From Candidatus Uhrbacteria bacterium (GTDB taxonomy: Bacteria > Patescibacteriota > Patescibacteriia > UBA9934 > GWF2-40-263): a stretch of DNA of 64,000 nt. The notes below the pieces were generated by a model that was given only the letters and a program-made list of their open reading frames with translations, did not search any database and was not told the origin of the DNA. This document shows positions 12,357-58,776 of the stretch, in pieces. The stretch lies in contig JACRJU010000010.1 of assembly GCA_016219925.1 (NCBI GenBank), positions 32,147-96,146 on the forward strand. The letters run 5' to 3'. Position 1 is the stretch's first letter. Each line of letters begins with the position of its first letter. Made by a program: the position numbers and the translations under genes.

Positions 12357-12414
12357 GAAAATAAACATCCCCTGACCGACTCCACGTGAGGTGGATATCG
12401 ACCAGGGGATAGGA

Positions 12415-13344
12415 TCAGCGCTTCCACCCGTTAGTGGCGTGGGTGATGCGCCGATCAAGGCTCTCGACGCGGTCGAGTTCGACCCGGACCGCGTTGCCCC
12501 ACAGAGTCTGGGGCGGCAGGCCGGGGATCTCGACCAGACTGCCGGTCGGAGCCAGGTAGATGATCTCGATGCGGTCGCGTGGGCCGACCGCCGAGATATA
12601 GAGCTCGTCGTAGGCGGCCGGGGCGACCGCGCTGTACGGGGTGCGGTCCGGACGACCGTCCCCATCGAGATCGGCGTAGACCGTCTCGATCGAGCCATCC
12701 GCATTGCCGATCGGGATGGCAACCCCGTTGCGCTTCACGAGAACCCGCGAGAATTGGGGGTTTCGGTGGGTGTGCCAGCTGACCCCACTGGCAAGCCCGA
12801 AGACTTGCAAGTAGGGGCCAACCACCTCGAAGGTCGTGGCGGCGTATGCCCCTGGGGTCGGGATGACCCTGTAGGGCGCGCCACCGACCATCATCGTGGA
12901 CGGTGGTAGGCCTGCGGGCGGACGGTGGTAGGCCTGCGGCTCGGCTGGTTGAGCCTTGCCGTCCTTCGCCTTCCGATCGCGGAGCGTCCGAAGACGCGCC
13001 TTGATCTGCTGCCTGGCTGTGCCAGCGGCAGGCAGCTCCGGCTGCTTGGCGTCCGGCACTGCCTGCTGGGACGCGAGCTTGGCTTTGGTCGCCTCGAGCT
13101 CCTGACGGAGCCGATCGACTTCGGCCTTGAGCCCGCTCTCGCCGGCTTTGAGCCGCGCCTCCAGGATCTTCACGTTCTGATCCTGGATGCACAGCAGTTG
13201 CTTGAGGCGGGCACTCGAGTCGGTTCCGGCGTAGCGGGCCTCGCAGAATGCGACGGCCTGCTTCGCTTCCTTCGACTCTTCAGCGTGCAGGGTGGCGGGG
13301 ACGAACAGGAACAGGGCGGCCGCGATGGCCATTTCGAACTTCAT
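12415..13344 (-). CDS. Secreted coiled-coil protein of unknown function (high-GC island 1)
   Basis: Signal peptide 'MKFEMAIAAALFLFVPATLHA', a coiled-coil stretch, then a C-terminal domain of unknown family. Strong GC-rich third-position bias. Antisense ORFs in the same region are Arg/Pro/Gly-rich junk. Confidence 0.5.
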   Translation of the reverse strand: MKFEMAIAAALFLFVPATLHAEESKEAKQAVAFCEARYAGTDSSARLKQLLCIQDQNVKILEARLKAGESGLKAEVDRLRQELEATKAKLASQQAVPDAKQPELPAAGTARQQIKARLRTLRDRKAKDGKAQPAEPQAYHRPPAGLPPSTMMVGGAPYRVIPTPGAYAATTFEVVGPYLQVFGLASGVSWHTHRNPQFSRVLVKRNGVAIPIGNADGSIETVYADLDGDGRPDRTPYSAVAPAAYDELYISAVGPRDRIEIIYLAPTGSLVEIPGLPPQTLWGNAVRVELDRVESLDRRITHATNGWKR

Positions 13345-13419
13345 GGATTTCTCCTTGTGGTCGGACGTGCCGACCGTCTTCGTCTTTCGAGACGGCCGGC
13401 ACGGACCACCCGAGCCGAC

Positions 13420-14055
13420 CTACTTGCGGTGAACTCGGAGGAGCTCGTTGAGGTCGCGGCGGTTGCACGCCGCTTCCTCTGCGGGGTTGGCGGGCGGGCG
13501 ACCACCAGGGCACTGGCTCGTGCTCGCGGGCGCGAGCGCTTGCGGAGGTGGCGGGCCGTAGTAACCCGGGGCGACCGCTTCACCGAGCGGCGGGAGGTAG
13601 CCTCTGGCTCCTGCCCGCCATCCAGCCTCGATCATGGTCGTCTCCTGGCTGGCTCCCGGATAGTAGACAGCCTGACCGTACGGCCCGTAGCCGCCGGCGG
13701 CGTAGGGGTAGGCCCCCATGCCGTACGGCCCGTAAGCGCCGTAGTAGCCCGTGTACCCGGAGGTCACCTGACCTCCGCGGGTGCTCACCTGCGTGGGCAC
13801 CCCCTTGTCAACCGACGCGCGGGCCGTTGCGGCCGCGCGCTCGGCCGCATCGCCGTCATGACGCGTACGCTCGAGCTGGTCGGCGGCGGCAAGGAGCGCT
13901 GCCGCTCCCCCGGTGGTGGCCAGATCCTGGTGGACCTGGACCGAACCGATGACCCGACCGCTTGCGTCGGTGAGGTCGCGCTTGAGCGCGACGCTCGCGC
14001 ATCCCGTGAGGGCGGCGAGCACGATGGCGAGGATGGTCTTCATCTGCTTCTCCAT
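13420..14055 (-). CDS. Lipoprotein with Gly/Tyr-rich repeat region (high-GC island 1)
   Basis: Lipobox 'LAALTGC'. Low-complexity 'YTGYYGAYGPYGMGAYPYAAGGYGPYG'. Same strand and same composition as the downstream gene. Confidence 0.5.
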   Translation of the reverse strand: MEKQMKTILAIVLAALTGCASVALKRDLTDASGRVIGSVQVHQDLATTGGAAALLAAADQLERTRHDGDAAERAAATARASVDKGVPTQVSTRGGQVTSGYTGYYGAYGPYGMGAYPYAAGGYGPYGQAVYYPGASQETTMIEAGWRAGARGYLPPLGEAVAPGYYGPPPPQALAPASTSQCPGGRPPANPAEEAACNRRDLNELLRVHRK

Positions 14056-14210
14056 GTCGACTCGCCTGCGGCTGCCGACTCAATTGCCCTGAAAAGGACG
14101 GTTTGTCCCAATTTGGGAACGTAGAAATATACCATAAAATTGCCTTTTTGTCAATAAATCCAACGAAAAAACGCCCTTTTAGGACGTTTCCTCAAACATT
14201 TAAAAACGGG

Positions 14211-15599: not shown

Positions 15600-17600
15600 C
15601 TACTTGCAGCCGAAGGCCTGACGACCTTCATAGCTAAGCGCCGCGCAGTCGACTCCGTTGGTGTGCGTGTGCGGCTTGGAAGCCGAACGCGCGCTGGACG
15701 AAGTCGGGGGCGTCGTGGCGAAGGGGTCCATCGTGTGGTGACCCACGAACCACGGAACGCTCACCGCGACCATGAGTGCGCAGAGGAAGACCGCGAGGTG
15801 GCCCACCAGGGGGTTACTCCCTTGAGTCACGTTCAGGATCGATCCTGACTGCACCCGTGTCTGTGCGAGCCGGCGCACGAGCCAGTACCCGGGCAGGTAC
15901 ACGAGCGTGAAGAGGACCGCGCTCGCAACCCACTGATGAGTCCCGAGGAAGCTGAGGCTTGCACCCCAGGCCGCGACAGTCGCGCCCCAGACGGCTTGCG
16001 GCCATCCGTGACGGATCATCCAGTCTGCGGCGATGATCCCGATCGTCACCAGCCACCCGTACTGCGCGCCCCGAAGAGCAAGCAGTTGGGCCTTGGCCGG
16101 CGCGCCCGCGACCTTGAAGCCCATCCCGATGCACACGCCGACGAAGGCGAGGCCCAGGATGACGACGCGTGCGCTGAGCGACACACCGACCTCCGGGATG
16201 AGGCCCAGAGCGATCAGGTACGCCGGCATCAGCATGAAGGTGAACCTCCAGCCGAATTCGGCGAGCCAATCGGCGGGCCACCCGAGCACACTGACAACCA
16301 GGGGGTGGAGCAGACGCTGCCAGATCCGCAGCGTAAAAAACATGATGATCAGCACCGTCGCGCAGATGATCGCGCGCAGGCTGTGGTACATGCTCGGGGC
16401 ACTGAAGAGGCTCGAGAGCATCCACCAGAACGCCGTGAGGAACATCACCACGGTCGCCAGGTTGAACACCACGATCCCGACCGCCGAGCCGTAGAGCAGG
16501 GCTTTGAGGGTCCCGCTCATGGCGCCGCGGTTGTGCCAGGCGCTCGAAGCGCCGCGCAGGGCCTTGTGCCAGAGCGTGAGCTCCGCACCCAAGGCCGTGT
16601 CGAACGCGGCGATGATGTCGTCGAGATCTTCGGGGTTGAACCGGTCCTCGGGGGTCGCACGCGGATTGTAGTACTCCGCGAGCGTCCTGAGAAACGGCAC
16701 GCCCTTCTTGTCGACGACGTCCTTGACGATGTCCTCGCGCAGGGCGTACTGCAGGGCCGTTCCCTGCCGCACGCTGCGGCTGATGAGCAGGAAGAAGCGC
16801 CGAACCTCGGGTCCGACCGCCTCCCACCACTCGGCGGGCTTCCTCAGAAGACCCTCGAGGATCTTGAGCTCTACGGCGCTGACGCGCTGGGTATCCCCCA
16901 TCTGCGCGATCGCTTCCGCGAGCTTCAGGACCTCGTGCGGGAAGGACTCGGCCGGCACACGCTCGGTGCGAGGCTGTTGGCCCTTGCCACCGCCGACCTG
17001 CTTGGTCGTGGCTTTGTGGGTGTCATCCCAGACGCTCTTGTAGAGCGCCCAGGTCGGATCCAGGATGACGGGCACCTGGTCGGCACCCACCCGAATCTTG
17101 CCGTCAGAGTCCCGGGCCGGAACGAAGATCTTACCCGGAACGAGCCGGCTGACAACAACCCAGTCAAGAGTCTGGTTGGCATCAGCGTCTGCGACGCCGG
17201 GGTCGGAGCGGGCCGCGTCGACCTCGCGATCGATCTGGCTCGCGGCATCCGCGTACCCGGTGAACACGCCCAACAGGGCGTGTGGGCCAACCTCCTTGAG
17301 GAGGAGCTTGGCCTCGCGAACGACCGGACGGGTGTCGCCCGGAAGAATCCGCTCGACGAAGTCGCTCTTCTTGAGCAAGGCCGCGACGGCCGAGCCCGCG
17401 AGTGGGAGGGTGAACCCGGGCATGGTGCGCGCCAGGGCCATGACCGGCCCGGCCGCTCCGAAGATGCCCTTGAGCGACCGCTTGGCGATCGCCTTGCCGG
17501 ACTCTCCAGCACCCGCACCCTCGGTGAGCTCGCGCTCGAGGTGCTGGTGCACGGCCTGTTCGGCGGCCTCTTCGGCCATCAATCGAAGAAACTCGTTCAT
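15600..17600 (-). CDS. Large polytopic membrane protein of unknown function (high-GC island 2)
   Basis: 666 aa. A soluble N-terminal domain of about 350 aa is followed by about 7-9 hydrophobic helices. GGAG RBS upstream. Very GC-rich. Confidence 0.5.
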   Translation of the reverse strand: MNEFLRLMAEEAAEQAVHQHLERELTEGAGAGESGKAIAKRSLKGIFGAAGPVMALARTMPGFTLPLAGSAVAALLKKSDFVERILPGDTRPVVREAKLLLKEVGPHALLGVFTGYADAASQIDREVDAARSDPGVADADANQTLDWVVVSRLVPGKIFVPARDSDGKIRVGADQVPVILDPTWALYKSVWDDTHKATTKQVGGGKGQQPRTERVPAESFPHEVLKLAEAIAQMGDTQRVSAVELKILEGLLRKPAEWWEAVGPEVRRFFLLISRSVRQGTALQYALREDIVKDVVDKKGVPFLRTLAEYYNPRATPEDRFNPEDLDDIIAAFDTALGAELTLWHKALRGASSAWHNRGAMSGTLKALLYGSAVGIVVFNLATVVMFLTAFWWMLSSLFSAPSMYHSLRAIICATVLIIMFFTLRIWQRLLHPLVVSVLGWPADWLAEFGWRFTFMLMPAYLIALGLIPEVGVSLSARVVILGLAFVGVCIGMGFKVAGAPAKAQLLALRGAQYGWLVTIGIIAADWMIRHGWPQAVWGATVAAWGASLSFLGTHQWVASAVLFTLVYLPGYWLVRRLAQTRVQSGSILNVTQGSNPLVGHLAVFLCALMVAVSVPWFVGHHTMDPFATTPPTSSSARSASKPHTHTNGVDCAALSYEGRQAFGCK

Positions 17601-17776
17601 CTCTATCTCCTGTGCGGCTCTTGGCCGCGCAATGGGTTTGGAACACGTGAAAAGGGCGAAAAAAACCTTTTCTCCAATGCGCGTTGCCGCACACAGAAGG
17701 GACTTTTATATCATATTTCGGCCGTTTTGTCAACGGCCAATGACTCATTTTTCTTAAATTCCTTCATAAGTCACCC

Positions 17777-17851
17777 AGTGGGTAATAAGAGATTTGTGAC
17801 CTTGTCTTCGGGCCGACGGACTCATCGCCGTCGTTCCCTCCGACATGGTCA
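17777..17851. repeat. 75-bp palindromic element with perfect 15-bp terminal inverted repeats
   Basis: aagagatttgtgacc (17777-17791) and ggtcacaaatctctt (17837-17851) are exact reverse complements. The spacer holds an internal cgacgg/ccgtcg stem. Confidence 0.6.
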
Positions 17852-17979
17852 CAAATCTCTTTAGGGCTGTGAAGAATAAACGAGTCACAGCCAGTGGGGA
17901 GGCGGCCATGGGGCCCCCACTGACCTTCTCTTTGTGGGCTTCAAGCGAACCCAAGCGGGTGGTCGAAAAGACAAAAGGG

Positions 17980-51796: not shown

Positions 51797-52720
51797 ATGA
51801 AATCTCTTCAAGCCTTTATCACGGATTTTTTGGAATATCTGGAAGTCGAGCGTGGTCGCAGTGCGCGGACGATTCGCAACTACGATTTTTATTTGCGCCG
51901 GTTTGCGCAGTTTGCTGGAAATATCCTTCCACCAAAGATTACGCGTGAAACCGTTCATCGCTATCGGTTATTTTTGAATCGTCTGGAACAAGGCCGTCAA
52001 GAAGTGACGCTCAAAAAAAGTACGCAGAATTATCATCTCATTGCCTTGCGCTCATTTTTGAAATATCTTTCGCGTCATGATGTTGCGAGCCTGCCCGCTG
52101 AACAGATCGAACTTGCCAAGCAGTCTAAGCGCACCGTGGATTTTCTCGAAGCTGATGAACTTGCCCGACTGTTGGCGATGCCGCAGAAAATCCATTCCGG
52201 TTTGATCGCCCTGCGTGACAAAGCGATTTTGGAGTTGTTGTTTTCCGCAGGTTTGCGCGTGAGCGAACTCACCGGACTCAAGATCGAGCAGATCAATCTC
52301 AAACGTGATGAGTTTACCGTGCGCGGCAAAGGCGACAAGCCGCGGCTGTGCTTTTTGTCTGATTCGGCAAAAGAAGCCATCAGAGGCTATCTTGAGAGAC
52401 GCCGCGATCCTTCACCGTTTTTGTTTGTTTCTCATGATCGGGCCAAAAGTGGTCGTAAAGACGGCGGACCACTCACCCCTCGCTCAGTTGAACGCTCGGT
52501 TGAACACTATGCGGTGAGCGCTGGCATCACAAAAAAAATTACTCCTCATACGCTTCGTCATACTTTCGCTACGGATTTACTCATGAGCGGCGCGGATATT
52601 CGTTCGGTGCAGTCGATGCTCGGGCATGAATCCATTACGACAACTCAGGTTTACACCCACATCACGAACAGCCAGATGAAGGAAGTTCACAAACGGTTTC
52701 ATGGGAAACAAAAGAGTTAG
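51797..52720 (+). CDS. Tyrosine recombinase XerC/XerD family
   Basis: 'ARDKAILELLFSAGLRVSEL', 'HTLRHTFATDLLMSGADIRSVQSMLGHESITTTQVYTH'. Confidence 0.85.
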   Translation: MKSLQAFITDFLEYLEVERGRSARTIRNYDFYLRRFAQFAGNILPPKITRETVHRYRLFLNRLEQGRQEVTLKKSTQNYHLIALRSFLKYLSRHDVASLPAEQIELAKQSKRTVDFLEADELARLLAMPQKIHSGLIALRDKAILELLFSAGLRVSELTGLKIEQINLKRDEFTVRGKGDKPRLCFLSDSAKEAIRGYLERRRDPSPFLFVSHDRAKSGRKDGGPLTPRSVERSVEHYAVSAGITKKITPHTLRHTFATDLLMSGADIRSVQSMLGHESITTTQVYTHITNSQMKEVHKRFHGKQKS

Positions 52721-54189: not shown

Positions 54190-54245
54190 TCTCTTGGTAG
54201 GGTACAGATACGACCTGGCATAAGGCTCGGTCAAGGGAGGCCATC

Positions 54246-55226
54246 ATGGCACACGTGACCCATCGCGATCTGCTCTTTCCCATCGTCGTGAAGTTCTGGG
54301 GGGTCCGCGGATCCTTCCCGACCAGCGACGTCCGGATCGGCGGGCACACGACATGCCTGACGCTCCAGTTCCCCGACCAACTCATCATCTTCGACACGGG
54401 TTCGGGGATGATCGACCTTGGCAACCATCTGCTCGAGCCGGCGCTCGTGCCTGGAACGACCCTCAAAGACATCGAGGTGTTCACCAAGGTCTGGCTCGGC
54501 CAGACTGGCAACAAGCCCGAGGATCTCGGGCGCGCTCTGCAGGAGCGGTTCCAGGGCAAGAACGGCGGGGTCAACGCGACCGTGATCCACAGCCACGTCC
54601 ACAAGGATCACCTCGACGGGCTCACGGCGTTCAAGCCCGTGTTCCGTCCGGACACGGAGCTCACCTTCATCGGCTCGCGCCACAATGATCTGACGATCGA
54701 GCAGGTCATGGAGCGCTTCGTGTTCACCCCGCCGGTGTTTCCGGTGCCCTGGAAGGTCCTGGGGTCGAGGCGCACCATGCGCGAGATCGCTCCGTCGGGC
54801 GACACCTTCACGATCCCCTGCGCGGTCGGCGACGACATCCGTGTGCGGATGCTGCCGATGAACCACCCCAACCAAGCCTACGGGTACCGGTTCGAGTGGG
54901 GCGGTCGTGTGATCGCGGTCACGCTCGACCACGAGCACGGTCACGACTTCGACCGCAACGTCGTCGAGCTCGCGGACAACGCCGACCTGTGGATCACCGA
55001 GGCGCAGTACACCGATGCGCAGTACGCGCGGTGCAAGGGCTTCGGCCACATCAGCGAGACCGCGGCCGCCGCGCACGCCAAGGCGGCCAAGCCCCGGCTC
55101 GTCTACACGACCCACCACGATCCGGACGCCGGCTTCGACGATGTCCAGCAGATCGCGCGCACCATCCAGGAGTTCTCGGGCGTCGAAGCTCGGTACGCCT
55201 GGCAGGGTAGCGAGGTCCACGTCTGA
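54246..55226 (+). CDS. MBL-fold metallo-hydrolase (high-GC island 4)
   Basis: 'VIHSHVHKDHLDG' HxHxDH motif, plus downstream His/Asp ligands. AGGGAGG RBS. Confidence 0.7.
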   Translation: MAHVTHRDLLFPIVVKFWGVRGSFPTSDVRIGGHTTCLTLQFPDQLIIFDTGSGMIDLGNHLLEPALVPGTTLKDIEVFTKVWLGQTGNKPEDLGRALQERFQGKNGGVNATVIHSHVHKDHLDGLTAFKPVFRPDTELTFIGSRHNDLTIEQVMERFVFTPPVFPVPWKVLGSRRTMREIAPSGDTFTIPCAVGDDIRVRMLPMNHPNQAYGYRFEWGGRVIAVTLDHEHGHDFDRNVVELADNADLWITEAQYTDAQYARCKGFGHISETAAAAHAKAAKPRLVYTTHHDPDAGFDDVQQIARTIQEFSGVEARYAWQGSEVHV

Positions 55227-56544: not shown

Positions 56545-57132
56545 ATGCGTACGCGCGTGATTATTGTTCATGGGTGGGGAGGTTTTCCAGAGGAAGGCTG
56601 GTTCCCTTGGCTGAAACAAACATTGGAACAGAAAGGATATACGGTTGAAGTTCCTCACATGCCTCATCCCGATTCTCCGGAAATTTTCCCGTGGGTTTCA
56701 ACACTCGCTCAAGTGGTTGGAGATATTGATGAGCACACGTTTTTTGTTGGGCATAGTATCGGCTGTCAGACGATTTTGCGTTTTTTGGAATCTCTGCCAG
56801 CGGGTCAGACGGCCGCAGGGGCAGTCTTTGTGGCGCCATGGCTTGCTCTTCAGCATTTAGGTGAAGAAGAAATGGAAATTGCCAAGCCATGGTTGCAGAC
56901 GCAGATTGATCTTGTGAAGGTCTTAGAGCATCTTCCAAAGAGCGCGGCGATTTTTTCTGACAATGATCCGTTTGTTTCTATTGAACAGCAGGATATTTTT
57001 CGTGATGAGCTTCATTCGGAAATTGTAATCGAACACAGGCTTGGACACATGAGCGGAGAGGATGGAGTGTCAGAGCTTCCTTCAGTTTTGGTTCATCTTA
57101 TTTCGTTATTTCCGTTGGAGTCGTCGTCTTGA
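56545..57132 (+). CDS. RBBP9/YdeN-family serine hydrolase (alpha/beta fold)
   Basis: 'VIIVHGWGG', nucleophile elbow 'GHSIG'. About 195 aa. Confidence 0.65.
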   Translation: MRTRVIIVHGWGGFPEEGWFPWLKQTLEQKGYTVEVPHMPHPDSPEIFPWVSTLAQVVGDIDEHTFFVGHSIGCQTILRFLESLPAGQTAAGAVFVAPWLALQHLGEEEMEIAKPWLQTQIDLVKVLEHLPKSAAIFSDNDPFVSIEQQDIFRDELHSEIVIEHRLGHMSGEDGVSELPSVLVHLISLFPLESSS

Positions 57133-57173
57133 TTTTTTTTTCTTTCGTTGCTATTCTCTTCGCGTTCGCGCAT

Positions 57174-57249
57174 GGCGGCCATGGTGAAACGGTTATCACA
57201 GCAGGTTGTGGTCCTGTCGTTACGGGTTCGATTCCCGTTGGCCGCCCCA
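57174..57249 (+). tRNA. tRNA-His (anticodon GTG) with encoded G-1 and CCA
   Basis: G-1 + gcggcca...tggccgc-c-cca. Anticodon stem gcagg/cctgt with loop ttGTGgt. T-arm acggg-ttcgatt-cccgt. Confidence 0.75.
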
Positions 57250-57303
57250 CACAAAACCCCCGGCTTTTGCCTGGGGTTTTGTGTGAGAGATAAGAATCGA
57301 ACC

Positions 57304-57322
57304 CGTAACGACGATCAACAAC
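57304..57322. repeat. Inverted 19-nt copy of the tRNA-His variable/T-arm region
   Basis: gaatcgaacccgtaacgac is the exact reverse complement of tRNA positions 57216-57234. Confidence 0.6.
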
Positions 57323-57423
57323 ACGGGTACGATGCTTGAAGTGAGCGAGCGGAGAGGCCGAGCGGAGCTCGGACTATCCCGAGCGAGCGAGAGCAATATG
57401 GGCGCCAGCCCATATTCCCGTTG

Positions 57424-57447
57424 GCCGCCCCACAAAATAGACCCCAG
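57424..57447. repeat. Direct repeat of the tRNA-His 3' end (att-like), embedded in a long hairpin
   Basis: attcccgttggccgccccaca-aaa matches 57231-57251. Forms cccgttggcc...ggccaacggg (57427-57489) enclosing acaaaatagacccca/tggggtctattttgt. Confidence 0.6.
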
Positions 57448-57694
57448 CATGCTGGGGTCTATTTTGTTTGGCCAACGGGAGGTGAAGGGGGCATGTCTCT
57501 TTTCTCTTCATTCTATCCACACTTGACACCATTTTTTCCTTCAGGCATACTTCTGCGGGTCTGCTTGTGAGGTGGCTATTTCAGCCAAAATTGCAGGCAT
57601 CCCGGCTGGCCGGATAGCCAGAGCCAGGCCAAACCGGATCGGTTTCCGGAAAGGCCAAACACCAGAAGCCCCAATGGGGCAACAGAGGCTACAG

Positions 57695-58732
57695 ATGAGG
57701 AACCTGTTTCAGATCGCGGTGGAGAATCTCGGCATCGAGAAGCGTCGCGTCGACATCAACGGCGTCACCGTCACGGCCATCAAGGGCTCGCCCGACAACA
57801 TCGCGCGGGTCATCGGCACCGCCCTGCGCGAGGAGCAGTACGACCTCAGCAACCTGATCGGCATGGGCATCTCCCGCGACGGGCAGATCCACCTGATCGG
57901 CTTCGACCCGGACAACGGCGGCAAGATCTCCAAGGCCGAGCTGCCCGAGAACGAGCTCGGGGGGCTCTACCTCGACGGCTTCGACTATGCGCACTTCGTC
58001 GGCTCGATGAAGGACGGCATCGTCGTCAGCGCGTTCGCCAAGGGCGTCCAGGCGACCCCGCAGAAGGGCCAGGCGCTGGACACCTTCGTCAAGGCCGTCT
58101 TCGCGGACGGCAACGTCATCGGCGCCGAGGACACCACCAACACGGTGCTGCTCATCGGCCGCAAGGGCGACCGCGTGCTGTTCGCGCTCGACACCGAGAA
58201 GCCGGACCTGTTCATGCAGGTGACGACGCCGCAGATGATCGGCGAGCCGCGCTACGCGCTGGTCGACCAGCAGACGCTGCTCATCGCCGAGGCCGGGACC
58301 GACCAGGTCTACGCCACCACCGCGCAGGAGCTCAAGACGCTCTTCGAGACCGGCGTGGAGCCGACCTGGCAGATGGCCGCGCTCAAGGGCCTCAGGATCG
58401 AGGACATCTCGCTCGGCATCGGCGACACCAACACCGTGATCGTCACCGCCATCCAGGGCCGCCAGCGCAAGCTGATCCCGACCTGGGCCGGCTGGAAGCC
58501 GACCAATGAGGGCGAGCAGAAGTTCCTCATGAACCCCAGCTACGCCGACGGCGTCGAGTCCGGCACGACCGCCCCGATCGTCCGCACCACGAGCAGCACC
58601 TACGTCGCGGTCGACGGCAACGGCGGCACCTTCCCGCGCCTCACCATCGGGACGCCCGAGGACATCAACCACCGCCTCGCGGTCATGGTCAAGAAGGCCG
58701 AGACCGGCGGCTACGCCAACCTGGCCCTGTAG
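57695..58732 (+). CDS. Hypothetical protein, 345 aa (high-GC island 5), family not recognised
   Basis: Coherent ORF with GC-rich third-position bias and a GAGG RBS. Start set at 'MRNLFQ'; the ORF track runs from 57572, but that start is read as a GTG alternative. Antisense ORF is Arg/Gly/Ala junk. Confidence 0.5.
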   Translation: MRNLFQIAVENLGIEKRRVDINGVTVTAIKGSPDNIARVIGTALREEQYDLSNLIGMGISRDGQIHLIGFDPDNGGKISKAELPENELGGLYLDGFDYAHFVGSMKDGIVVSAFAKGVQATPQKGQALDTFVKAVFADGNVIGAEDTTNTVLLIGRKGDRVLFALDTEKPDLFMQVTTPQMIGEPRYALVDQQTLLIAEAGTDQVYATTAQELKTLFETGVEPTWQMAALKGLRIEDISLGIGDTNTVIVTAIQGRQRKLIPTWAGWKPTNEGEQKFLMNPSYADGVESGTTAPIVRTTSSTYVAVDGNGGTFPRLTIGTPEDINHRLAVMVKKAETGGYANLAL

Positions 58733-58776
58733 GCCGCCCCCCCACAACGTCAGCGCACACTCGCGCTGACACGCTC

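What the first reader, a model, noticed from the sequence alone, without database searches (positions are those of the whole stretch)
57229..57490. Compact repeat/hairpin module downstream of tRNA-His: inverted tRNA fragment, two long hairpins and internal palindromes within about 260 bp
Directly after the tRNA there is a 13-bp-stem hairpin that begins inside the CCA end (57248-57285). Next comes an exact 19-nt inverted copy of the tRNA variable/T-arm segment (57304-57322). A GC-rich segment with small palindromes follows (gagcgagcgg...gagcgagcgag; atatgggcgccagcccatat). A second tRNA-3'-end copy is folded into a ~63-nt double hairpin (57427-57489). The arrangement looks like a decayed second, inverted tRNA-His or pseudo-tRNA plus att remnants. 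It could also be a MITE-like insertion-target structure, or a processed small RNA.
Basis: seen in the sequence. Interest (0 to 1): 0.5.

Follow-up and report, generated by a model that had tools for sequence, protein, structure and literature searches.

The report
Conserved hairpin element in tRNA-His fragment
Just after the tRNA-His gene of this Candidatus Uhrbacteria genome lies a partial, rearranged copy of the same tRNA, split in its T-loop by an 82-base hairpin-rich element; that element recurs at the same T-loop position beside tRNA-His, tRNA-Met and tRNA-Lys genes of related bacteria and matches no described RNA family.

Summary
The inverted tRNA copy lies at 57294-57312, not 57304-57322. 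The second tRNA 3' copy starts at 57414.

This is not random decay. The order is: tRNA-His (57174-57249), terminator H1, an inverted tRNA fragment, a direct T-arm half, an 82-nt core "X" (57334-57415), a copy of tRNA nt 60-76, then terminator H2.

Two other genomes carry the same layout at tRNA-His (L004, L005). A metagenome contig has it at tRNA-Met (L052). In L051, X sits inside a tRNA-Lys copy. In every case X lies between T-loop nt 59 and 60, and its flanks come from the neighbouring tRNA.

X folds as a rod with three tandem G·A motifs plus two hairpins that co-vary. Ten pairs show compensatory changes (0 of 500 shuffles reach this). The tRNA-sense strand folds better in 5 of 5 copies. Rfam, phage, plasmid and viral searches found nothing, and no recombinase or transposase gene lies beside any copy.

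- **Best reading (0.45):** a small, non-autonomous selfish insertion that targets tRNA T-loops and persists only where a partial tRNA duplication keeps one gene intact.
- **Main rival (0.3):** a functional RNA with a tRNA-mimic tail.

It is not a leader of the downstream gene, a classical island or an assembly artefact.

The parts
57174..57249 (+). tRNA-His (GTG) with encoded G-1 and CCA. The T-loop TTCGATT is 57227-57233.
   Evidence: ARAGORN; Rfam RF00005 at 61.3 bits; sequence.
57231..57251 (+). Direct repeat copy 1, ATTCCCGTTGGCCGCCCCACA. It covers tRNA nt 58-76 plus 2 nt.
   Evidence: the repeat finder family D1; pattern search finds 2 hits against 0.02 expected.
57248..57285 (+). H1, the bidirectional intrinsic terminator of tRNA-His. 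Arms are 17 nt and the tail is TTTTGTGTG.
   Evidence: -29.7 kcal/mol, z = -8.1. It is homologous to the L004 terminator: same loop GGCTTTTGCC, stems changed with compensation.
57294..57322 (-). Inverted partial tRNA-His copy. 57294-57312 is an exact reverse complement of 57216-57234 (variable loop, T-stem 5' strand, T-loop). A decayed part extends to about 57322 and matches the anticodon arm (tRNA nt 31-61).
   Evidence: the repeat finder pair I2; local alignment. An equivalent fragment is present in L004, L005, L009 and L052.
57323..57333 (+). Direct T-arm 5' half, ACGGGTaCGAT (tRNA nt 49-59, one mismatch). It forms hairpin Ha with the inverted fragment (ATCGAACCCGT / ACGGGTACGAT).
   Evidence: GGTTCGAT lies directly 5' of X in the four other copies; the window has GGTaCGAT.
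57334..57415 (+). Conserved core X (82 nt). The rod spans 57333-57395: closing stem, three tandem G.A/A.G motifs each separated by two Watson-Crick pairs, GGAGAG/CUAUCC, and the variable apical hairpin Hb at 57358-57372. Hairpin Hc follows at 57396-57415.
   Evidence: Alignment A1; RNAalifold; covariation with 10 compensatory pairs and 0 of 500 shuffles reaching it; covariance model R1 scores 104 bits and finds one copy in the window; the plus strand is more stable than the minus in 5 of 5 copies. No Rfam family matches.
57416..57432 (+). Tail TCCCGTTGGCCGCCCCA. It is a copy of tRNA nt 60-76: last T-loop base, T-stem 3' strand, acceptor 3' strand, discriminator and CCA. With 57414-57415 and 57433-57434 it forms direct repeat copy 2.
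   Evidence: In L004, L005 and L052 the tail is identical to the 3' part of the neighbouring tRNA, 19-20 of 19-20 nt.
57432..57467 (+). H2, a perfect 36-nt palindrome of terminator form: a GC-rich stem followed by TATTTTGTTT. Both Logan contigs break here.
   Evidence: The simple terminator scan did not list it. A terminator hairpin occupies this place in L004, L005, L052 and L059.
57470..57480 (-). GGCCAACGGGA, an inverted copy of tRNA nt 61-71. It extends H2 into the 65-nt quasi-palindrome 57416-57480. It is specific to this genome.
   Evidence: the repeat finder pairs I6 and I7; fold of -50.9 kcal/mol, z = -10.6. It is absent from L004, L005 and L052.
57523..57694 (+). Not part of the module. 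This is the promoter (TTGACA, 17 nt, CATACT; 57523-57551) and the roughly 140-nt leader of the downstream ORF 57695-58732.
   Evidence: Promoter scan; alignment with L003. The same promoter and leader precede the homologous ORF in L003, L056, L058 and L059.

Best explanation
The region is the 3' flank of tRNA-His. It contains the tRNA's own terminator (H1), then a gene-less composite of about 150 bp, then a second terminator (H2).

The composite is a rearranged partial duplicate of tRNA-His. It comprises an inverted fragment (reverse complement of nt 31-61), a direct T-arm 5' half (nt 49-59) and a direct 3' part (nt 60-76). Its T-loop is interrupted between nt 59 and 60 by an 82-nt structured core, X.

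My preferred mechanism is that X is a small, non-autonomous selfish element that targets the T-loop of tRNA genes. Two routes seem possible. It may recognise the T-arm as a DNA hairpin, as loop- or hairpin-targeting insertion sequences do. Or it may use T-loop-specific recombination or homing that copies flanking tRNA sequence. Because tRNA-His is single-copy and essential, only insertions that leave or regenerate an intact gene survive. That would explain why X is always found in a truncated tRNA copy next to an intact cognate tRNA. The 21-nt direct repeat of the tRNA 3' end would then be the att-like junction of that event.

**Shown**
- The anatomy of the region.
- The fixed T-loop position of X.
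- The three different tRNA hosts.
- Conservation and covariation of the structure on the tRNA-sense strand.
- The absence of coding capacity and of any adjacent recombinase gene.

**Inferred**
- Mobility itself.
- The DNA-level or RNA-level route of insertion.
- The trans-acting factor.
- The origin of the inverted fragment. It possibly arose by template switching around the T-arm and terminator palindromes, as for the H2 extension.
For: 1. **The same composite recurs at tRNA-His in two other genomes.**
   - These are L004 and L005 (L005 = L053 = L055), found by scanning for the tRNA 3' end.
   - Scanning metagenomes for two conserved X blocks gave six hits. Two lie in coding sequence. Two (L053, L055) repeat the L005 tRNA-His copy. 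The other two lie next to tRNA-Met (L052) and inside a tRNA-Lys copy (L051).
2. **The insertion site is fixed.**
   - X is preceded by GGTTCGAT (T-loop up to nt 59) in four copies and by GGTaCGAT in the window.
   - It is always followed by nt 60 plus the T-stem 3' strand of the neighbouring tRNA.
3. **X has changed host.** By sequence the copies group as {window, L004} and {L005-His, L052-Met, L051-Lys}.
4. **Presence is patchy.**
   - Eight loci share an identical tRNA-His gene (L005, L006, L010, L018, L027, L028, L041, L042). Only L005 has X. L027 has a different element, and several have just a terminator.
   - Closer relatives L056, L058 and L059 lack X.
5. **In L005 and L059 the direct repeat covers the whole terminator.** It is 53-55 nt and identical, while the internal inverted fragment has decayed. 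This is what one expects if the repeats are regenerated by recombination and the interior belongs to the element.
6. **The structure is conserved.**
   - 95.7% of cells are paired and 10 pairs show changes on both sides.
   - 0 of 500 shuffles reach the observed values, and slid controls are far lower.
   - Hb and Hc have unrelated sequences but remain hairpins.
7. **Nothing known matches and nothing is encoded.**
   - There is no Rfam match.
   - By reading the sequences, the 64-aa ORF over X is cut by stop codons in L004 (13 codons) and in the L005/L052/L051 group (3 codons).
8. **Tolerated and precedented position.**
   - T-loop nt 59/60 is where T-loop motifs tolerate insertions (my own knowledge of T-loop structure).
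   - Group I introns are known to interrupt tmRNA genes at the T loop (PMC13011429).
Against: - No transposase, integrase or reverse transcriptase gene lies within several kb of any X copy. The only recombinase is a Xer-like gene 4.5 kb upstream.
- X is single-copy in this 64-kb window even with filters off. It is rare overall: five distinct copies were found in all.
- X has no terminal inverted repeats and no clear target-site duplication, only a 2-nt AT ambiguity at the junctions.
- The window and L004 carry the module at the same locus although their Ser_hydrolase proteins are 59% identical and their upstream spacers cannot be aligned. Yet the G.A rod, the inverted fragment (18/19) and the tail (19/19) are conserved. 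That looks like long-term purifying selection, which favours a host function.
- The recurrent inverted tRNA fragment is not predicted by a simple insertion model.
- L051 has a different arrangement, with X upstream of the intact tRNA.
Confidence: 0.45

Rival explanations
1. The module is a functional plus-strand non-coding RNA of the tRNA-His transcription unit, either a read-through 3'-trailer RNA or an independently made RNA. In this reading it has three hairpins (Ha, the G.A rod, Hc). These are followed by a single-stranded 17-19-nt tail identical to the tRNA's 3' end, and then by its own terminator H2. The tail (a tRNA 3'-end mimic) and the upstream anti-T-arm segment (complementary to tRNA nt 44-61) would make it specific for the cognate tRNA. 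It could act as a decoy, a regulator of tRNA processing, a trans-acting '3' half', or a guide-like RNA.
For: - **Purifying selection.** Primary sequence is conserved in the rod, the tail (19/19) and the inverted fragment (18/19) between genomes whose proteins are 59% identical and whose spacers cannot be aligned.
- **Structure.** Hb, Hc and the closing stem show compensatory changes.
- **Strand.**
  - The internal loops are GA/GA on the plus strand, where they can form tandem sheared G.A pairs. On the minus strand they would be UC/UC.
  - The plus strand folds better in 5 of 5 copies.
- **sRNA-like layout.** Structured 5' part, single-stranded stretch, then a terminator.
- **Tracking of the host tRNA.** The tail and the anti-T segment follow the identity of the neighbouring tRNA (His or Met).
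- **A second family with the same layout.** 'Z' (L059, L027) has a T-stem-like closing helix, a G.A-containing helix, hairpins, then the acceptor 3' strand and CCA.
Against: - No promoter-like site lies between H1 and the module. The gap is 8-20 nt, and the only strong promoter is at 57523.
- The module sits behind a strong terminator.
- L051 lacks the inverted fragment and has only 9 nt of tail.
- In L027 the tail of the Z element has decayed.
- The element is very rare and patchy among close relatives.
- No expression data are available.
Confidence: 0.3
2. The module is the scar of a classical tRNA-targeting integrative element (prophage or island). In this reading the two tRNA 3' copies are attL and attR, X and the inverted fragment are remains of the attP arms, and the element's interior with its integrase has been deleted.
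For: - A direct repeat of the tRNA 3' part starting in the T-loop, with the tRNA regenerated, is the hallmark of tDNA islands (Islander paper PMC4383910, abstract seen).
- The repeated GAGCGAGCG motifs (D4) could be arm-type binding sites.
- The stretch between tRNA-His and the TrmB-like gene varies among relatives.
Against: - Only 183 bp separate the repeats and no gene lies between them.
- The same gene-less size (176-187 bp) and the same boundaries recur in three genomes at tRNA-His and at tRNA-Met. Independent deletions would not give that.
- No viral contig, phage or plasmid carries X, Z or this tRNA-His 3' end.
- The T-arm half is separated from the core repeat by X itself, which is not the layout of an attR.
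- Hairpin covariation is not expected for protein-binding arm sites.
Confidence: 0.1
3. The module is neutral debris: a duplicated and inverted tRNA-His that is decaying. The palindromes would have been produced and extended by replication template switching around the T-arm and terminator hairpins. No function and no mobility are involved.
For: - The inverted copy decays away from the T-arm, for example GTTGTGG to GTTGTTG in the anticodon region.
- The H2 extension GGCCAACGGGA is specific to this genome and looks like a quasi-palindrome extension.
- Inverted tRNA fragments lie just after the terminator in 6 of 43 tRNA-His loci, against 0 upstream.
- The orientation of tRNA-His flips among relatives.
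Against: - Debris would not keep an 82-nt core with compensatory changes across genomes with 57-59% protein identity.
- It would not place the same core beside tRNA-Met and tRNA-Lys with matching flanks.
Confidence: 0.07
4. The module is a cis-regulatory leader or insulator of the downstream gene (57695-58732).
For: - It lies directly upstream of that gene's promoter.
- A module (X or Z) sits between tRNA-His and the homologous gene in both the window and L059.
Against: - The conserved promoter and leader begin only at about 57497.
- They occur without any module in L003, L056 and L058.
- X occurs with unrelated downstream genes in L005, L052 and L051.
Confidence: 0.03

Closest known systems
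Genomic islands and prophages integrated in tRNA genes, T-loop sublocation class, and their gene-less derivatives (cis-mobilizable elements)
   Same: - Direct repeat made of the tRNA 3' part starting in the T-loop.
- An intact tRNA is regenerated on one side and a displaced fragment sits on the other.
- Different tRNA genes can be used.
   Different: - The whole unit is about 180 bp with no integrase and no cargo.
- The displaced fragment is separated from its T-arm half by a structured 82-nt core.
- An inverted tRNA fragment is part of the unit.
- No phage or plasmid relative was found.
IS200/IS605-type miniature elements (PATEs) and other insertion sequences that target hairpins or palindromes (REP/BIME-targeting IS; terminator-targeting group II introns)
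   Same: - No terminal inverted repeats and no clear target duplication.
- Hairpins near both ends.
- Insertion always 3' of one short motif (TTCGAT here; ISDra2 uses TTGAT, from my own knowledge).
- The target is itself a hairpin, the T-arm.
   Different: - The left-end and right-end hairpins are unlike each other, and their sequences are not conserved.
- No TnpA or TnpB gene was seen.
- One copy per locus.
- Partial duplication and inversion of the target is not a feature of that family.
Introns in tRNA and tmRNA genes (bacterial group I introns, including those of Patescibacteria and the tmRNA T-loop introns; archaeal introns at non-canonical positions)
   Same: - An intervening sequence at a fixed position of a tRNA-type T-loop.
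- Patescibacteria are rich in tRNA introns (PMC13011429).
- Nt 59/60 is structurally permissive.
   Different: - X is 82-97 nt and has no group I core (no Rfam hit).
- The interrupted tRNA copy is never complete, so nothing functional could be produced by splicing.
- An intact intron-less gene lies alongside.
Small RNAs derived from tRNA 3' external transcribed spacers (for example 3'ETS-leuZ of E. coli; my own knowledge)
   Same: - Location in the 3' trailer of a tRNA gene, on the same strand.
- Structured, and followed by a terminator.
   Different: - The module lies behind a strong terminator.
- It contains tRNA-derived mimic and antisense segments.
- No expression evidence is available.
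Split and permuted tRNA genes of Archaea and red algae (my own knowledge)
   Same: A separately encoded 3' portion of a tRNA, preceded by a segment complementary to another part of the same tRNA.
   Different: - A complete tRNA-His gene is present.
- The break is in the T-loop, not the anticodon loop.
- Bacteria lack the splicing endonuclease these systems depend on.

Membership tests
tRNA or pseudo-tRNA (Rfam RF00005; ARAGORN) | A cloverleaf that scores with a tRNA covariance model. | tested here: not met
   Only the real gene 57175-57249 is found. No second tRNA-model hit appears on either strand of 57000-57800 at E <= 10.
tRNA-integrated genomic island or prophage (attL/attR) | A direct repeat consisting of the 3' part of the target tRNA, with the tRNA gene regenerated. 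| tested here: met
   57231-57251 equals 57414-57434 (21/21). The tRNA is intact.
tRNA-integrated genomic island or prophage (attL/attR) | An integrase gene and cargo genes between the repeats. | tested here: not met
   The spacing is 183 bp and holds no conserved ORF. No integrase lies near any of the five X loci. The nearest recombinase is Xer-like, 4.5 kb upstream and outside the repeats.
MITE (miniature inverted-repeat transposable element) | Terminal inverted repeats and a target-site duplication. | tested here: not met
   The ends of X (GCTTGAAG... and ...GCCCATAT) are not inverted repeats of each other. Only a 2-nt AT ambiguity exists at the junctions.
MITE (miniature inverted-repeat transposable element) | Many dispersed copies per genome. 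| tested here: inconclusive
   The 64-kb window holds one copy. Two copies, at tRNA-Met and tRNA-Lys, come from one metagenome sample, but I could not tell whether they come from one genome. The whole genome was not available.
IS200/IS605-derived miniature element (PATE) | Insertion 3' of a fixed 4-6-nt target, with no terminal inverted repeats and with sub-terminal hairpins. | tested here: met
   TTCGAT precedes X in four copies and TaCGAT in the window. Hairpins lie near both ends.
IS200/IS605-derived miniature element (PATE) | Similar left-end and right-end hairpins recognised by one TnpA, and a TnpA or TnpB gene somewhere in the genome. | tested here: not met
   Hb and the rod are unlike Hc, and their sequences vary between copies. 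No such gene was seen in the window ORFs examined. The rest of the genome was not testable.
Group I intron in a tRNA or tmRNA gene | A group I catalytic core, within an otherwise complete host gene. | tested here: not met
   No Intron_gpI hit at E <= 10. X is 82-97 nt. The interrupted tRNA copies lack either the 5' two-thirds (window, L004, L005, L052) or the acceptor 3' strand (L051).
Intrinsic (Rho-independent) terminator | A GC-rich hairpin followed by a T-run. | tested here: met
   H1 is called by the scan and folds strongly. H2 has the same form (stem, then TATTTTGTTT) and folds at -50.9 kcal/mol including its extension, but the simple scan did not list it.
Any described RNA family (Rfam 15) | A covariance-model match. 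| tested here: not met
   Nothing but tRNA reaches significance in the window region, the whole window, or eight related loci.
Expressed small RNA (tRNA 3'-trailer type) | A discrete transcript with defined ends. | not testable with these tools
   No transcriptome data. No promoter-like site lies between H1 and the module.

The most novel reading that the evidence does not exclude
X, together with the unrelated 'Z' element found in the same layout in L059 and L027, may represent a class of tRNA-cognate RNAs. Each would be a structured scaffold inserted at the permissive nt 59/60 of a T-arm. A free 12-19-nt tail identical to the tRNA's 3' end follows the scaffold. An upstream segment antisense to the same tRNA's T-arm often precedes it. 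Such an RNA could act as a guide-like or decoy RNA for the tRNA gene or transcript: the motif TTCGAT followed by the tail sequence is exactly what is found in the intact gene, as with transposon-end-derived guide RNAs. Or it could serve as a trans-acting replacement 3' half. Equally novel would be a new type of mobile element that recognises the T-arm hairpin of tRNA genes.
Probability: 0.15. Interest if true: 0.85.

Novelty: new variant of a known kind. Interest (0 to 1): 0.58.

Why it matters
tRNA genes are the classic landing sites of mobile DNA. The known occupants are kilobase-sized islands with integrases, or self-splicing introns.

Here a gene-less unit of about 180 bp has a conserved, co-varying 82-nt core at one exact T-loop position. 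It recurs at three tRNA species in the small genomes of Candidate Phyla Radiation bacteria.

- **If it is mobile,** it is a new minimal way of colonising an essential gene without destroying it. It also points to an unidentified trans-acting factor that recognises a helix rich in G·A pairs.
- **If it is an RNA,** it adds a family of tRNA-specific mimic or antisense RNAs in organisms where almost no regulatory RNA is known.

There is also a practical consequence. Such modules break short-read assemblies at their palindromes, and they can be misread as att sites of islands.

Tried and rejected
1. **Known RNA family or pseudo-tRNA.** Rfam at gathering and E-value thresholds, plus ARAGORN, found only the real tRNA.

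2. **Island bounded by a third repeat.**
   - GGCCGCCCC occurs a third time at 58732, right after the stop codon of the GC-rich ORF. That suggested an island spanning 57438-58731.
   - I rejected this. The homologue in L003 has a similar post-stop sequence.
   - The ORF is also syntenic, with its own conserved promoter and leader, in five relatives.

3. **The GC-rich neighbour gene as the element's recombinase or nuclease.**
   - It has no Pfam or NCBIfam hit.
   - A high-confidence AlphaFold model (pLDDT 94) gives only weak beta-propeller-like matches, TM about 0.3.

4. **Assembly artefact at the palindrome.** Independent Logan contigs are identical to the window, and the right arm lies in the right-hand contig.

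5. **Protein coding.** The 64-aa ORF 57332-57526 is interrupted in L004, L005 and L052 (sequences).

6. **Phage, plasmid or viral origin.** Five viral-contig scans (X in three patterns, Z, and the tRNA-His 3' end) and blastn against phages and plasmids found nothing.

7. **Relation to GTCATCCYGAGCG-type repeats.** These are seen near L003, L005 and L031, but in the window they occur no more often than chance.

8. **Similar modules at the other three tRNA genes of the window.** There are none.

9. **Literature.** Nothing in the searchable library describes small T-loop insertions or such modules.
Full report
**Observation**

- **Organism.** The window comes from a Candidatus Uhrbacteria genome; NCBI names the neighbouring proteins HZA85_01900 and HZA85_01905.
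- **tRNA-His.** tRNA-His(GTG) occupies 57175-57249, with G-1 at 57174 and an encoded CCA.
- **Repeats and hairpins.**
  - H1 (57248-57285) has 17-nt arms, -29.7 kcal/mol and z = -8.1.
  - There is an exact 19-nt inverted copy of the variable-loop and T-arm segment.
  - There is a 21-nt direct copy of the tRNA 3' end. A 19-nt probe finds 2 sites against 0.02 expected.
  - A 65-nt quasi-palindrome spans 57416-57480, at -50.9 kcal/mol and z = -10.6.
- **Corrections.**
  - The inverted copy is at 57294-57312, not 57304-57322.
  - The second 3' copy starts at 57414, not 57427.
  - The 'double hairpin' is one long palindrome.
- **Not an artefact.** Two independently assembled Logan contigs are identical to the window and break symmetrically inside the palindrome.

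**Anatomy**

Reading 5' to 3' on the plus strand:

| Coordinates | Element |
|---|---|
| 57174-57249 | tRNA-His |
| 57248-57285 | terminator H1, called by the simple scan |
| 57294-57322 | inverted tRNA fragment, reverse complement of nt 31-61; perfect over the T-arm and decayed over the anticodon arm |
| 57323-57333 | ACGGGTaCGAT, a direct T-arm 5' half that pairs with the inverted fragment as hairpin Ha |
| 57334-57415 | the 82-nt core X |
| 57416-57432 | TCCCGTTGGCCGCCCCA, equal to tRNA nt 60-76 |
| 57432-57467 | terminator-like palindrome H2 |
| 57470-57480 | GGCCAACGGGA, an inverted copy of tRNA nt 61-71 that extends H2 |

The promoter TTGACA-17-CATACT (57523-57551) and the leader of the next gene begin only after this.

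**Comparative evidence**

- **Same module at tRNA-His elsewhere.**
  - Scanning one genome per species for the tRNA-His 3' end gave 46 loci.
  - Two of them carry a second copy 176-187 bp downstream. These are L004 and L005, the latter from Uhrbacteria RIFOXYA2_FULL_40_9.
  - L004 is labelled Gammaproteobacteria but is syntenic with the window.
  - In both, the intervening sequence is the same module.
- **Same core at other tRNAs.**
  - Scanning metagenome contigs for two conserved blocks of X gave six hits.
  - Two are chance matches in coding sequence.
  - Two repeat the L005 copy.
  - One lies behind a tRNA-Met gene (L052). There the tail is the tRNA-Met 3' end and the inverted fragment resembles the tRNA-Met T-arm.
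  - One lies directly inside the T-loop of a 5'-complete tRNA-Lys pseudo-copy, immediately upstream of an intact tRNA-Lys (L051).
- **Fixed junction.**
  - The 5' flank of X is GGTTCGAT in four copies and GGTaCGAT in the window.
  - The 3' flank is always nt 60 plus the T-stem 3' strand of the neighbouring tRNA.
  - X therefore sits between T-loop nt 59 and 60, with a 2-nt AT ambiguity.
- **Host switching.** By sequence the copies group as {window, L004} and {L005-His, L052-Met, L051-Lys}, so X has changed tRNA host.

**Structure**

- **Consensus fold.** RNAalifold on the five copies gives a closing stem (UGCGU/ACGCA) with G-C to U-A exchanges. Next come three repeats of two Watson-Crick pairs plus a 5'-GA/5'-GA internal loop, which I read as tandem sheared G·A pairs. 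Then follow GGAGAG/CUAUCC, a variable apical hairpin Hb, and a second hairpin Hc.
- **Covariation.**
  - 95.7% of cells pair.
  - Ten pairs change on both sides.
  - 0 of 500 shuffles reach the observed values, and slid controls collapse.
  - With only five sequences this is supportive, not conclusive. But Hb and Hc have unrelated sequences and remain hairpins throughout.
- **Strand.** The GA/GA loops would be UC/UC on the other strand, and the tRNA-sense strand folds better in 5 of 5 copies. So the structured strand is the plus strand, as RNA or as single-stranded DNA.
- **No known family.** No Rfam family matches. X is single-copy in the window and has no conserved ORF.

**Context**

- **No mobility gene nearby.** No integrase, transposase or reverse transcriptase lies near any copy. 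The Xer-like recombinase 4.5 kb upstream is syntenic in relatives and looks like the housekeeping enzyme.
- **No external source.** Viral contigs, phages and plasmids hold neither X, nor Z, nor this tRNA 3' end.
- **The downstream GC-rich gene is not an island.**
  - Homologues with 28-43% identity and GC3 of 0.87-0.997 sit at the same place, behind the same promoter and leader, in five relatives.
  - The predicted fold is beta-rich with no enzyme-like match.
- **Patchy presence.** Among eight loci with an identical tRNA-His gene, only L005 has X. Closer relatives L056, L058 and L059 lack it.
- **Long-term conservation.** The window and L004 keep the module at the same locus although their Ser_hydrolase proteins are 59% identical and their upstream spacers cannot be aligned.

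**Explanation**

- **Preferred (0.45): X is a small non-autonomous selfish insertion specific for the tRNA T-loop.**
  - It is seen only in truncated tRNA copies because the intact cognate gene must survive.
  - The direct repeat is the junction of that event.
  - Shown: the fixed T-loop position, three hosts, patchiness, the absence of genes, and repeats that in L005 and L059 extend over the entire terminator while the interior has decayed.
  - Inferred: the insertion route and the trans-acting factor. The route could be recognition of the T-arm hairpin in DNA, T-loop recombination, or homing with co-conversion of flanks.
- **Main rival (0.3): a functional plus-strand RNA with a tRNA-mimic tail and an anti-T-arm segment.**
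  - The long-term conservation and the sRNA-like layout favour it.
  - The lack of a promoter behind a strong terminator, the deviant L051 copy, and the rarity of the element count against it.
- **Classical att scar (0.1).** It fails on the missing integrase and on the recurrent 176-187-bp size.
- **Neutral decay (0.07).** It fails for X, but may explain the 11-nt H2 extension.
- **Leader of the downstream gene (0.03).** Comparison with relatives excludes it.

**Comparison and novelty**

- **Closest known kinds.** These are T-loop-class tDNA islands and their gene-less derivatives, IS200/IS605-type miniature elements and other hairpin-targeting insertion sequences, T-loop introns of tmRNA genes (PMC13011429), and tRNA-trailer small RNAs.
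- **Membership.** The module meets some defining features of each and fails at least one: integrase and cargo; terminal inverted repeats; matched end hairpins; a group I core within a complete host gene.
- **Rating.** I rate it a new variant of a known kind, namely a minimal structured occupant of a tRNA gene, with interest 0.58.
- **Most novel reading still open (probability about 0.15).** X and the analogous Z element are tRNA-cognate guide, decoy or '3'-half' RNAs, or a new class of mobile element that recognises the T-arm.

Noticed in passing
window 57523-58732; also L003 2098-3270, L056 4044-5130, L058 2635-3774, L059 3085-4154: The 345-aa ORF 57695-58732 has GC 0.67 and GC3 0.986 in a window of 50% GC. 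Homologues sit at the same syntenic place (beside tRNA-His, upstream of TrmB-PolA), behind the same promoter TTGAC(A/C)-17-GGCATACT and a partly conserved leader of about 140 nt. They share only 28-43% identity while the neighbouring TrmB proteins are 72-79% identical, and all have GC3 of 0.87-0.997. So this is a fast-evolving gene that keeps extreme GC3 in mid-GC genomes, not a recent transfer. The family is tiny (33 representatives among 1.84 billion proteins) and has no Pfam or NCBIfam hit. An AlphaFold model (pLDDT 94) is beta-rich and gives only weak propeller-like matches.
   Followed up: partly
window 12391-14124, 15600-17864, 54231-55226: There are further sharp GC-rich patches (60-69% GC) that coincide with single ORFs. 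Long ORFs are open on both strands there. Two of the three ORFs scanned have no Pfam hit and one is an MBL-fold protein. The flanks carry no tRNA fragments. This may be the same phenomenon as the GC-rich gene next to tRNA-His.
   Followed up: partly
L059 2814-3010 and L027 (about 150 nt after its tRNA-His terminator): A second, unrelated structured element ('Z') sits in the same layout downstream of tRNA-His. The order is: hairpin, GUC, GGGAAUUGAAC (an inverted T-loop), GCCGGAGCCUUAU, a hairpin, AUGGCGAGGCGG, a large hairpin, then AAUUCCCGGUGGUCGCCCCA and a terminator identical to the tRNA's own. In L059 a T-stem-like helix closes a three-way junction. In L027 the tail has decayed.
   Followed up: partly
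L031, L034, L047, L041, L009 (within 300 nt downstream of tRNA-His): Other Patescibacteria tRNA-His loci carry different short inserts that end in a copy of the acceptor 3' strand plus CCA (L031, L034, L047). Others start with an inverted T-loop fragment right after the terminator (L031, L041, L009). Of 43 tRNA-His loci, 5 have a direct and 6 an inverted copy of at least 10 nt of tRNA nt 44-76 within 400 nt downstream. None has an inverted copy upstream.
   Followed up: partly
L003 12-86, L056 3896-3970, L058 2474-2548 versus window 57175-57249 and L059 2739-2813: The orientation of tRNA-His relative to the conserved neighbours (the GC-rich gene, TrmB, PolA) flips among close relatives. X or Z modules were seen only where the tRNA 3' end faces those genes.
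   Followed up: no
window 57438-57461; L002 252-1343: Logan unitig-type contigs of SRR12113407 end and start symmetrically, 12 nt either side of the centre of the H2 palindrome. On the GC-rich ORF, the gene call recorded for these contigs is on the antisense strand (363 aa) instead of the strand of the 345-aa protein annotated at NCBI.
   Followed up: yes
window 58732-58748: GGCCGCCCCCCCACAAC directly after the stop codon resembles the tRNA-His 3' end (GGCCGCCCCACA). GGCCGCCCC occurs only three times in the window. It is probably part of the gene's 3' region, because the L003 homologue has TAGGCCCCC at the same place, rather than a third att-like repeat.
   Followed up: partly
L005 2900-3160 (also L003 3330-3415 and L031): L005 has tandem repeats of about 38 nt containing GGGATGACAG...CCCTGCCC a few hundred bases downstream of its module. 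Related GTCATCC(C/T)GAGCG... palindromic motifs occur near L003 and L031. In the window they are no more frequent than chance.
   Followed up: partly
L004 (CAYMBX010000047.1): This MAG contig is labelled 'uncultured Gammaproteobacteria'. Yet it shares gene order (kinase-like protein, tRNA-Arg, Ser_hydrolase, tRNA-His), a 59% identical Ser_hydrolase and a near-identical tRNA-His with the Uhrbacteria window. The label is probably a binning or taxonomy error.
   Followed up: partly
window 51797-52720: A Xer-like tyrosine recombinase gives sub-threshold matches to XerC and XerD and an above-threshold match to archaeal-type XerA. It lies 0.4-4.5 kb from tRNA-His in the window, L056 and L059. I did not test whether it acts on T-arm-like sites.
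   Followed up: no
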